In this document: positions 5,495-5,791 of the stretch, piece after piece | How positions within the stretch are numbered: the first letter of the stretch is position 1 | Layout: each line of letters opens with the position of its first letter | Source of the DNA: a virus | Taxonomy: Duplodnaviria > Heunggongvirae > Uroviricota > Caudoviricetes | Direction: 5' to 3' (one strand) | IMG/VR virus record: IMGVR_UViG_2537561945_000004 | Length of the DNA: 42,538 nucleotides | The notes under the pieces: generated by a model | Database searches by the model: none | Told to the model about the DNA's origin: nothing | What the model saw: the letters and a program-made list of their open reading frames with translations, nothing else | Made by a program: the position numbers and the translations under genes

Positions 5495-5514
5495 TACTGT
5501 ATAAATATACAGTT
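5495..5514. promoter_or_regulatory. LexA (SOS) box
   Basis: TACTGTATAAATATACAGTT matches the E. coli LexA consensus TACTGTATATATATACAGTA (CTGT-N8-ACAG, 18/20), about 20 nt upstream of the GGAGAAG RBS of the 5534 gene. Confidence 0.7.
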
Positions 5515-5533
5515 ATTGCATGGAGAAGATAAG

Positions 5534-5791
5534 ATGCAGCGGTATCACTATCCACTGGAAGACGGATTTACCGAAAGGATTCACACGCCGGGAGGCGTCA
5601 GGTCACTGGTGGAGGGATCGCACTTGATGAAATTACTCCGGGATCTCGATAAGGATGGATTTAATGTCGATGGCCCACTTGCCGAACTGACTGCACTGAT
5701 TAACTACGTCACCAGCTCACAGATGTCTATGCAGGATCTGCAAACACATCTCGACTATTGTGCCGAACAATTACGAAAACAAACCCGGTAA
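5534..5791 (+). CDS. Small antirepressor-like protein (paralog of the C-terminal domain of the 6939-7651 antirepressor), likely SOS-controlled
   Basis: ATG 5534 with GGAGAAG RBS (track ORF starts at upstream TTG 5516); 85 aa; clear similarity to the C-terminal part of the Bro-N antirepressor (LMKLL..L..DG..V.G..AELT......V......DLQTH..Y); LexA box directly upstream. Confidence 0.5.
   Translation: MQRYHYPLEDGFTERIHTPGGVRSLVEGSHLMKLLRDLDKDGFNVDGPLAELTALINYVTSSQMSMQDLQTHLDYCAEQLRKQTR

What the first reader, a model, noticed from the sequence alone, without database searches (positions are those of the whole stretch)
5495..5791. SOS box in front of a stand-alone antirepressor-domain gene, paired with a repressor lacking a self-cleavage domain
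A near-consensus LexA box (TACTGTATAAATATACAGTT, 5495-5514) lies immediately upstream of the RBS of an 85-aa gene (5534-5791). Its product is homologous to the C-terminal part of the neighbouring Bro-N antirepressor (6939-7651). The repressor candidate (36122-36706) has two HTH domains but no visible S24 peptidase module. Together this suggests induction by a LexA-derepressed antirepressor (as described for coliphage 186 Tum and Gifsy-type phages) rather than RecA-stimulated repressor autocleavage. The extra TTACC-N5-GGTAA site upstream (5442) would put the gene under dual control.
Basis: partly seen in the sequence, partly recalled or inferred. Interest (0 to 1): 0.7.

Follow-up and report, generated by a model that had tools for sequence, protein, structure and literature searches.

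The report
LexA-controlled phage antirepressor, already known
This is the E. coli copy of a prophage wake-up switch already worked out in Salmonella phage SPC32H: DNA damage removes the host LexA repressor from a small phage gene, and its 85-aa product then disables a phage repressor that cannot cut itself.

Summary
TACTGTATAAATATACAGTT (5495-5514) is the only LexA-like site in the window. It matches the consensus at 18 of 20 positions and scores 27.5 bits; the best score in any shuffle was 18.2. It lies 20 bp upstream of an 85-aa gene (5534-5791).

The window is an epsilon15-like (Uetakevirus) E. coli prophage.
- The 85-aa protein is 88% identical to the SPC32H antirepressor Ant (PDB 5D50 chain E, E=1e-46).
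- The 194-aa regulator (36122-36706) is 41% identical to SPC32H Rep (5D50 chain A, E=5e-41) and has no S24 peptidase domain.
- The LexA box and the ATTACC-N5-GGTAAT Rep operator (5442-5458) are conserved upstream of ant in nine phages from four host genera.
- SPC32H and its variant SPC32N differ by one base inside this box.

Ant shows no sequence relation to 186 Tum, so that comparison is an analogy only.

- The neighbouring Bro-N gene starts at 6940 and is a frameshifted pseudogene.
- It has its own control by Rep operators and a c4/isrK antisense RNA.
- Whether the operator at 5442 regulates ant or the divergent tailspike gene is unresolved.

Low novelty.

The parts
5495..5514 (+). LexA (SOS) box TACTGTATAAATATACAGTT, a palindromic CTGT-N8-ACAG core
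   Evidence: It is unique in the window and matches the consensus at 18 of 20 positions. It is conserved upstream of ant in 9 phages. The SPC32H/SPC32N difference C->A falls in the ACAG half of the orthologous box.
5472..5500 (+). Inferred ant promoter: -35 TGGATA (5472-5477), 17-bp spacer, -10 TACTGT (5495-5500, the first half of the LexA box)
   Evidence: This is an inference. The CTGGATAG block and TACTGT are conserved across the orthologs. The annotated p95 of phage 186 has the same layout, with -10 = TACTGT inside its LexA site. The consensus scan at >=9 of 12 matches did NOT report a promoter here.
5522..5525 (+). Ribosome-binding site GGAG, 8 nt before the ATG
   Evidence: The TGCATGGAGAAGA block is conserved in the five E. 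coli and Salmonella phages; across all nine only GGAG is invariant.
5534..5791 (+). ant: 85-aa antirepressor, ortholog of SPC32H Ant
   Evidence: PDB 5D50_E, E=9.9e-47. 88% identity by tblastn to SPC32H ant. PHROG 450, E=1.5e-47.
5798..5815 (.). GC-rich hairpin AGGCCGC-TCTT-GCGGCCT between ant and the convergent gene 5814-6542. The scan calls it a terminator on the minus strand only; it probably also ends the ant transcript
   Evidence: minus strand, followed by TTAAATTT. On the plus strand the hairpin is followed by ATCGTTTCGCTTTG, a weaker T tract.
5442..5458 (.). Rep operator ATTACC-TTTAT-GGTAAT in the tailspike/ant intergenic region
   Evidence: The motif occurs 16 times against 0.76 expected. 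It is conserved in all 9 orthologous regions. The orthologous site is annotated as protein_bind 'repressor' in the epsilon15 record.
36122..36706 (+). rep: 194-aa prophage repressor with an N-terminal HTH DNA-binding domain and a C-terminal HTH_3-like oligomerisation/Ant-binding domain; no S24 peptidase
   Evidence: PDB 5D50_A, E=4.9e-41; 5D4Z_A (the Rep C-terminal fragment), E=4e-20. 41% identity to SPC32H Rep. Pfam domains. It is 99.5% identical to ZX5 ORF21, whose overexpression blocks lytic growth.
35737..35967 (-). cro-like early regulator, divergent from rep
   Evidence: PHROG 35 'transcriptional repressor', E=5.6e-13. Synteny with SPC32H_042.
36004..36066 (.). Rep operators in the rep/cro intergenic region (36004-36018 with 1 mismatch; 36052-36066)
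   Evidence: The site at 36004 overlaps the minus-strand promoter-like site TTGTTA-17-TATTAT (36021-35993).
6940..7651 (+). Bro-N::Ant-like antirepressor pseudogene: Bro-N domain at 6940-7251, Ant-like C-terminal domain in ORF 7337-7651, +1 frameshift in the C5 run at 7233-7237
   Evidence: RefSeq flags it as 'frameshifted'.
6563..6891 (+). Control region of the Bro-N gene: Rep operators 6563-6577 and 6656-6670, c4 a1/b1 targets, isrK-like RNA 6707-6783, C4 antisense RNA 6808-6891
   Evidence: Rfam: isrK 67.7 bits (gathering 50), C4 63.6 bits (gathering 45), c4-a1b1 44.1 bits (gathering 46.7). The complementary a/b target sequences were verified.

Best explanation
The window is an epsilon15-like (Uetakevirus) E. 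coli prophage. The finding is its SOS induction switch, orthologous to the one in Salmonella phage SPC32H.

In the lysogen, host LexA sits on the box at 5495-5514. The box overlaps the -10/start region of the ant promoter and keeps ant silent. The phage repressor Rep (36122-36706) binds ATTACC-N5-GGTAAT operators spread over the prophage and holds the lytic genes off.

DNA damage activates RecA, LexA cleaves itself, and ant is transcribed. The 85-aa Ant then binds Rep by protein-protein contact; in SPC32H an Ant tetramer splits the DNA-binding Rep tetramer into two dimers. Rep leaves its operators and the lytic cycle starts. Rep is not cleaved.

Shown here by computation: homology, synteny, conservation of the sites, and absence of an S24 domain. 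Inferred from the ortholog: LexA binding, SOS induction of ant, and Ant-Rep binding for this particular pair, whose Rep is only 41% identical to SPC32H Rep.
For: - Ant matches PDB 5D50 chain E 'Anti-repressor protein', E=1e-46. Rep matches 5D50 chain A and 5D4Z 'Repressor'.
- Synteny is the same: ant is a lone gene beside the tailspike gene, transcribed divergently from it, and is named ant in KC911856. rep and its neighbour are arranged as in SPC32H.
- The LexA box is unique in the window and near consensus. It is an island of conservation in a 74%-identical intergenic region across 9 phages of Escherichia, Salmonella, Enterobacter and Klebsiella.
- In the 3.4 kb compared, the deposited SPC32H and SPC32N genomes differ at two positions. 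One is C->A in the ACAG of this box. This fits my recollection of Kim & Ryu 2013, that a LexA-box point mutation makes Ant constitutive.
- Rep has no S24 domain, and none was found in the ten other early-region and flanking ORFs I scanned.
- Rep and Ant co-occur: all 35 phage records with Ant also carry Rep, and only 1 of the 36 records with Rep lacks Ant.
- In the sister phage ZX5, overexpressing a Rep 99.5% identical to this one abolished free phage (PMC9782041).
- Reviews describe the SPC32H mechanism (PMC7380047; PMC9638917).
Against: - No experiment exists for this exact Ant/Rep pair. Rep is only 41% identical to SPC32H Rep while Ant is 88% identical, so cognate binding is inferred, not shown.
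- The sigma-70 consensus scan found no promoter upstream of ant. The proposed promoter matches only 7 of 12 positions.
- I could not read the two primary papers, which are not held. Details of the SPC32H experiments rest on secondary citations, database records and my memory.
Confidence: 0.88

Rival explanations
1. Ant of this prophage does not act mainly on its own diverged Rep. Instead it works in trans on repressors of other co-resident epsilon15-like prophages, as a crosstalk inducer, or it has drifted to another target.
For: Ant is 88% identical to SPC32H Ant, but Rep is only 41% identical to SPC32H Rep. Trans-acting antirepressors are documented for Gifsy phages (PMC3121763).
Against: Ant and Rep co-occur in 35 of 36 phage records. 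Rep keeps conserved blocks in both domains: NLVNRW in the N-terminal domain, and A.AFG..YE, YD and LP..EK.KI in the C-terminal domain. The operator half-sites are unchanged. Acting in trans would add to cognate action rather than replace it.
Confidence: 0.06
2. Induction still proceeds through repressor destruction, by RecA-stimulated autocleavage or another protease. The LexA-controlled small gene would then be an accessory SOS modulator, like DinI or the C-terminal half of 186 Tum.
For: 186 Tum carries a DinI-like half (PMC3121763). P22 has an Ant yet is induced through cleavage of its repressor (PMC7380047).
Against: Rep has no S24 domain. Its C-terminal domain matches the solved oligomerisation domain of SPC32H Rep (5D4Z). 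Ant has no significant similarity to Tum/DinI (E=0.042 in a single pairwise comparison). It is crystallised in complex with Rep (5D50).
Confidence: 0.03
3. The palindrome is a chance AT-rich inverted repeat, or it serves the divergent tailspike promoter and has nothing to do with ant.
For: The intergenic region is AT-rich and is shared by two divergent genes.
Against: No shuffle of the window gave a site within 3 mismatches of the consensus. The box lies 20 bp from the ant ATG and 157 bp from the tailspike start. It is conserved in 9 phages while the flanking sequence diverges. The SPC32H/SPC32N difference maps to it.
Confidence: 0.02

Closest known systems
Salmonella phage SPC32H Ant/Rep/LexA antirepression switch (Kim & Ryu 2013, J Virol 87:11775; Kim et al. 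2016, PNAS 113:E2480; PDB 5D50, 5D4Z)
   Same: - Same phage genus (Uetakevirus).
- Ant is 88% identical.
- Same position and orientation next to the tailspike gene.
- Same LexA box placement and same upstream Rep operator.
- The Rep homolog has the same two-domain layout and no S24 peptidase.
   Different: - Rep is only 41% identical. It is the phiV10/TL-2011b/ZX5 type, which may be a different immunity specificity even though the operator half-sites look the same.
- The E. coli phages also insert extra genes downstream of ant, including a second antirepressor (Bro-N::Ant-domain) controlled by c4 RNA. SPC32H lacks this.
Coliphage 186 Tum (LexA-controlled antirepressor of CI)
   Same: Same logic: LexA box, then a small antirepressor, then inactivation of a repressor that is not cleaved. 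The promoter geometry also matches: in 186 p95 the -10 hexamer TACTGT is the first half of the LexA box.
   Different: There is no detectable sequence homology. Tum is 146 aa with a DinI-like C-terminal half, and it targets a different repressor family in a P2-like myovirus.
Gifsy-1/-2/-3 GfoA/GftA/GfhA and N15 AntC (LexA-controlled antirepressors; Lemire et al. 2011; Mardanov & Ravin 2007)
   Same: A small antirepressor gene lies outside the immunity region under direct LexA control. The repressors are not cleaved (PMC3121763).
   Different: They are in different phage types (lambdoid siphoviruses, and N15). Sequence relatedness was not tested here. In Gifsy the antirepressor follows a dinI homologue in an operon; here ant stands alone.
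P1/P7 immI (c4 antisense RNA controlling ant) and Salmonella Gifsy-1 IsrK
   Same: This applies to the neighbouring Bro-N gene only. A promoter carrying primary-repressor operators is followed by a1/b1 targets, the c4 RNA and a2/b2 targets over the RBS of the antirepressor gene.
   Different: No icd-like leader gene was seen. The antirepressor carries the SPC32H-Ant-type domain at its C-terminus. The gene is frameshifted in this window.

Membership tests
SPC32H-type small antirepressor Ant (PDB 5D50 chain E; PHROG 450) | Full-length sequence homology to SPC32H Ant | tested here: met
   phmmer E=9.9e-47 over residues 2-84. 88% identity by tblastn. PHROG 450, E=1.5e-47.
SPC32H-type small antirepressor Ant (PDB 5D50 chain E; PHROG 450) | LexA box overlapping the ant promoter directly upstream of the gene | tested here: met
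   The box lies at 5495-5514, 20 bp before the ATG. It is unique in the window and aligned with the SPC32H box. The SPC32N point difference lies in it. The overlap with the promoter itself is an inference.
SPC32H-type small antirepressor Ant (PDB 5D50 chain E; PHROG 450) | Synteny: a lone gene next to the tailspike gene, transcribed divergently from it | tested here: met
SPC32H-type small antirepressor Ant (PDB 5D50 chain E; PHROG 450) | Cognate Rep-family repressor present in the same genome | tested here: met
   5D50_A, E=4.9e-41. Co-occurrence in 35 of 36 phage records.
SPC32H-type small antirepressor Ant (PDB 5D50 chain E; PHROG 450) | Physical binding of Ant to Rep with release of Rep from DNA, and LexA binding to the box | not testable with these tools
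   This needs EMSA, pull-down or genetics. It is shown only for the SPC32H ortholog (PDB 5D50; PMC9638917; PMC7380047).
Coliphage 186 Tum family | Sequence homology to Tum, including its DinI-like C-terminal half | tested here: not met
   BLASTP E=0.042 for a single pairwise comparison, 14 of 47 identities with gaps. No Pfam or NCBIfam DinI match.
Coliphage 186 Tum family | LexA-repressed promoter driving an antirepressor | tested here: inconclusive
   The geometry resembles the annotated p95, but no expression data exist for the window.
Lambda CI/LexA-type self-cleaving repressors (Peptidase S24) | C-terminal S24 peptidase domain | tested here: not met
   No Peptidase_S24 hit at E<=1 in Rep. 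The C-terminal domain aligns with the solved Rep oligomerisation domain 5D4Z.
P1-type immI module (c4 antisense RNA + antirepressor), for the neighbouring Bro-N gene | C4 RNA gene above the Rfam gathering score, with complementary a/b targets upstream and over the antirepressor RBS | tested here: met
   C4 scores 63.6 bits (gathering 45) and isrK 67.7 bits (gathering 50). The loop sequences CCACTTAG and CGCCAA are complementary to CTAAGTGG at 6748 and 6921 and to TTGGCG at 6732 and 6894. The b2 target overlaps the GGAG at 6927-6930.
P1-type immI module (c4 antisense RNA + antirepressor), for the neighbouring Bro-N gene | Intact antirepressor reading frame | tested here: not met
   +1 C at 7233-7237 relative to the intact alleles. 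RefSeq marks it as 'frameshifted'.

The most novel reading that the evidence does not exclude
The E. coli epsilon15-like phages may use one Rep-binding domain under two control logics. The first is a LexA-gated stand-alone Ant, which acts as the trigger. The second is a Bro-N::Ant-domain fusion whose promoter carries Rep operators and whose translation is gated by c4/isrK antisense RNA. The fusion would be made only once Rep is already failing. That would give positive feedback that commits the switch, or act as an anti-immunity function at superinfection.

In this prophage the second tier is dead through a frameshift, so induction should be purely LexA/Ant-dependent and perhaps less sharp.

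A related reading is that the strongly conserved Ant (60-88% identity across four host genera) can cross-induce prophages whose Reps have diverged to about 41-44% identity.
Probability: 0.3. Interest if true: 0.45.

Novelty: already known. Interest (0 to 1): 0.2.

Why it matters
The finding matters mainly for annotation. RefSeq and most GenBank records call this ant gene 'hypothetical protein'. The one experimental paper on a near-identical E. coli phage, ZX5, studied only the Bro-N protein and never mentions LexA or SPC32H. Recognising the ortholog predicts that phiV10/TL-2011b-type prophages, including those in EHEC strains and those used as O157 reporter phages, are induced through LexA and Ant rather than by repressor cleavage. 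It adds no new biology beyond the SPC32H work.

Tried and rejected
- I tried to read the two primary papers (PMC3807360, PMC4983836). Neither is held, so the experimental details are second-hand.
- I looked for a textbook sigma-70 promoter upstream of ant with the consensus scan and found none. The TGGATA-17-TACTGT proposal rests on conservation and on the analogy with 186 p95.
- I considered that the second HTH-like region of Rep might be a second DNA-binding domain. The match to 5D4Z (a Rep C-terminal fragment) and the description in PMC9638917 point to an oligomerisation/Ant-binding role instead.
- I looked for an S24 repressor elsewhere in the early region and found none in the ten ORFs scanned.
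- Pfam and NCBIfam have no family for Ant. The DUF724 hit is below its cut-off and was ignored.
- I did not use the large protein or metagenome searches or structure prediction, because a solved ortholog already answered the question.

Full report
WHAT IS THERE

The window is an epsilon15-like podovirus prophage (genus Uetakevirus) of E. coli. The region 5340-7700 matches Escherichia phages TL-2011b, phiV10, ZX5 and relatives at 91-97% identity. It matches the chromosomes of E. coli BE311, F41, K99S and EC24.26 at 100%. An integrase lies at the right end of the window, at 41282-42538.

At 5495-5514 the sequence reads TACTGTATAAATATACAGTT. It is followed by GGAG at 5522-5525 and by an ATG at 5534 that opens an 85-codon frame ending at 5791. 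The tailspike gene (3176-5338) runs the other way.

IS IT MORE THAN CHANCE?

Yes.
- The site is the only one in 42.5 kb within three mismatches of the 20-bp LexA consensus. No match appeared in 100 dinucleotide-preserving shuffles.
- I built a symmetric PWM from 19 E. coli SOS boxes recalled from memory, so it is approximate. The site scores 27.5 bits, above every training site. The runner-up in the window scores 11.0, and the best score in 100 shuffled windows was 18.2.
- I aligned the tailspike/ant intergenic region from nine phages of Escherichia, Salmonella, Enterobacter and Klebsiella. Mean column identity is 74%. The box stands out as a conserved island, together with the RBS, a CTGGATAG block and the palindrome ATTACC-N5-GGTAAT.
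- In the two Klebsiella phages aligned, the left half-site is degenerate (ATGT instead of CTGT).

WHAT IT IS

The 85-aa protein matches the 'Anti-repressor protein' chain of PDB 5D50 with E=9.9e-47 over its whole length. It is 88% identical to the gene annotated ant in Salmonella phage SPC32H.

The 194-aa regulator at 36122-36706 matches the 'Repressor' chain of the same crystal complex (E=4.9e-41). It also matches the Rep C-terminal fragment solved in 5D4Z (E=4e-20). BLASTP identity to SPC32H Rep is 41%.

Pfam finds HTH-type matches at residues 21-61 and 106-147 and no Peptidase_S24. The ten other early-region and flanking ORFs I scanned also lack S24.

The gene order is the same as in SPC32H. 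ant sits alone beside the tailspike gene, transcribed divergently from it. rep sits next to a divergent cro-like gene at 35737-35967 on the minus strand (PHROG 35).

Across the phage collection, 35 records carry Ant and 36 carry Rep. All 35 records with Ant also carry Rep.

HOW IT WORKS

Secondary literature describes the SPC32H system. After LexA self-cleavage, Ant is made and inhibits the repressor by protein-protein interaction (PMC7380047). Rep binds DNA as a tetramer, and a tetrameric Ant binds two Rep dimers and breaks the tetramer (PMC9638917).

From memory, Kim & Ryu 2013 reported three things:
- Rep is not cleaved during the SOS response.
- LexA represses ant through a site that overlaps its promoter.
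- The variant SPC32N carries a point mutation in that site that makes Ant constitutive.

I could not open that paper. The deposited genomes agree with my recollection, however. In the 3.4-kb stretch compared, SPC32H and SPC32N differ at two positions, and one is C->A in the ACAG half of the box.

In the sister phage ZX5, Rep is 99.5% identical to this one. Overexpressing it abolished free phage and cut endolysin and holin transcripts by more than 99.9% (PMC9782041).

I therefore assign the same mechanism here: LexA represses ant, Ant inactivates Rep, and Rep represses the lytic promoters.
- Shown here: homology, synteny, site conservation and absence of an S24 domain.
- Inferred: LexA binding, SOS induction of ant, and Ant-Rep binding for this diverged Rep.

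THE PROMOTER

The consensus scan found no sigma-70 promoter upstream of ant. The best conserved candidate is TGGATA (5472-5477), a 17-bp spacer, and TACTGT (5495-5500). This places the -10 hexamer in the first half of the LexA box. It matches the consensus at only 7 of 12 positions. The annotated SOS promoter p95 of coliphage 186 has the same layout, with its -10 TACTGT inside its LexA site. This promoter assignment is an inference.

THE 'DUAL CONTROL' CLAIM

The site at 5442-5458 is real. TTACC-N5-GGTAA occurs 16 times (<=1 mismatch) against 0.76 expected by chance. By comparison with the ORF map, almost all copies lie in intergenic regions: between rep and cro, downstream of rep, and upstream of the Bro-N gene. 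The epsilon15 record annotates the orthologous site as a repressor-binding site.

At the cro-side promoter, the operator at 36004 overlaps the core promoter. At the promoter-like site 36798-36826, one operator follows the -10 hexamer directly (it starts on its last base) and another lies 62 bp upstream of it.

At ant, the operator centre lies about 57 bp upstream of the inferred transcription start. That resembles the upstream operator of such a pair, with the LexA box taking the promoter-proximal position. It could equally serve the divergent tailspike promoter. A conserved TAGAAT on the minus strand at 5387-5392 abuts a conserved ATTACC half-site at 5392-5397. I leave this point unresolved.

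THE NEIGHBOURING BRO-N GENE

The gene starts at 6940. Relative to the intact alleles in strain 20KM2222 and in TL-2011b, it has one extra C in a C-run at 7233-7237. This splits it into a Bro-N piece (6940-7251) and an Ant-like piece (7337-7651). RefSeq flags the identical BE311 sequence as frameshifted.

Twenty-four positions are invariant across Ant orthologs and this domain.

The gene belongs to a separate, P1-immI-like module.
- Rep operators lie at 6563 and 6656.
- Promoter-like sites lie at 6627-6656 and 6672-6700.
- An isrK-like RNA (6707-6783, 67.7 bits) and a C4 antisense RNA (6808-6891, 63.6 bits) follow, both above the Rfam gathering scores.
- The loop sequences of c4 are complementary to targets at 6732/6748 and at 6894/6921. 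The last target overlaps the Bro-N RBS.

The same RNAs precede the intact gene in ZX5, TL-2011b and phiV10. They are absent from the SPC32H stretch examined. In ZX5, overexpression of the Bro-N protein lowered lysogen counts about 1000-fold. That protein's last ~125 residues are nearly identical to the intact 20KM2222 allele of the gene that is frameshifted here.

COMPARISON WITH KNOWN SYSTEMS

This is a member of the SPC32H Ant/Rep family; every sequence-level criterion I could test was met.

It works like 186 Tum, N15 AntC and the Gifsy GfoA/GfhA antirepressors (PMC3121763). It is not a Tum homolog. It is not a lambda-type switch, because Rep has no S24 domain.

NOVELTY AND VERDICT

The system is already known.

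Two things remain of value. One is an annotation gap: ant is called 'hypothetical protein' in RefSeq and in most phage records. The other is the modest, untested idea that E. coli members of the genus carry a second antirepressor, controlled by Rep and by c4 RNA, that reuses the Ant domain.

Interest 0.2.

Noticed in passing
window 6694-6891 (+): A P1-immI-like antisense RNA module lies upstream of the Bro-N gene. It comprises c4 a1/b1 targets (44.1 bits, just under the gathering score), an isrK-like RNA at 6707-6783 (67.7 bits) and a C4 RNA at 6808-6891 (63.6 bits). The c4 loop sequences are complementary to sites at 6732/6748 and at 6894/6921, and the last site covers the Bro-N RBS. The same RNAs are found in ZX5, TL-2011b and phiV10. 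They were not found in the 3.4-kb SPC32H stretch searched.
   Followed up: partly
window 7230-7241: The Bro-N::Ant-like gene has a +1 frameshift: a run of five C where intact alleles have four. The same sequence occurs at 100% identity in four complete E. coli genomes, so it is probably a real pseudogene rather than a sequencing error. A 104-aa ATG-initiated ORF (7337-7651) still contains the whole Ant-like domain.
   Followed up: partly
window ~8238-9560: An IS3-family insertion sequence has HTH_Tnp_1 and rve ORFs at 8280-8690 and 8648-9553, and imperfect inverted repeats at 8243-8274 and 9525-9556. It looks IS2-like from memory. It interrupts the DUF4760 gene (7861-), which is intact (540 nt) in strain BE311.
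   Followed up: partly
window-wide: 5443, 6563, 6656, 7717, 26585, 27201, 30103, 30121, 33659, 33721, 35667, 36004, 36052, 36764, 36826: The Rep operator motif (A)TTACC-N5-GGTAA(T) is scattered over the whole prophage, with 16 copies against 0.76 expected. By comparison with the ORF map, nearly all lie in intergenic regions. Two pairs (33659/33721 and 36764/36826) share a 62-bp spacing. Rep therefore appears to repress many promoters directly, not only an early pair.
   Followed up: partly
window 5814-6542 (-): A 242-aa protein converges on ant. By eye it has a hydrophobic N-terminal stretch. Its Cys-rich C-terminal part gives PHROG matches to endonuclease VII and Lar-like families, and a Stc1 (Pfam) match that falls below the curated cut-off. 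It belongs to PHROG 6762, function unknown. It is absent from SPC32H, epsilon15 and phiV10 at this position, and the corresponding stretch in TL-2011b is annotated only as a misc_feature 'similar to hypothetical protein'.
   Followed up: no
L017 5045-5064 (phage 186) vs L003 1617-1636 (SPC32H): The LexA box of coliphage 186 p95 (TACTGTATGTTTATACAGTA) matches the SPC32H ant box (TACTGTATGTTTATACAGTG) at 19 of 20 positions, although Tum and Ant are unrelated proteins.
   Followed up: no
L001 6471-7655 (TL-2011b): TL-2011b carries a third antirepressor module of P22 immI type: Ant, an Arc-like repressor, and a sar antisense RNA (44.8 bits, gathering 43). The window has the IS element and DUF4760 gene in this region instead.
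   Followed up: no
L006 2695-2952 (E. coli BE311), L001/L002 3195-3452: The ant ortholog is annotated 'hypothetical protein' in RefSeq E. coli genomes (WP_001190175.1) and in the TL-2011b, phiV10 and ZX5 records. The ZX5 paper calls only the Bro-N protein 'anti-repressor'. This is an annotation gap.
   Followed up: yes
H81, PP488543.1 (Escherichia phage BP9, 138 kb): This is the only phage record with the Rep gene (99.5% identical) but no Ant match. Its annotation there is 'plasmid maintenance system antidote protein VapI'. The record size is unlike a Uetakevirus, so it may be a chimeric or misassembled record.
   Followed up: no
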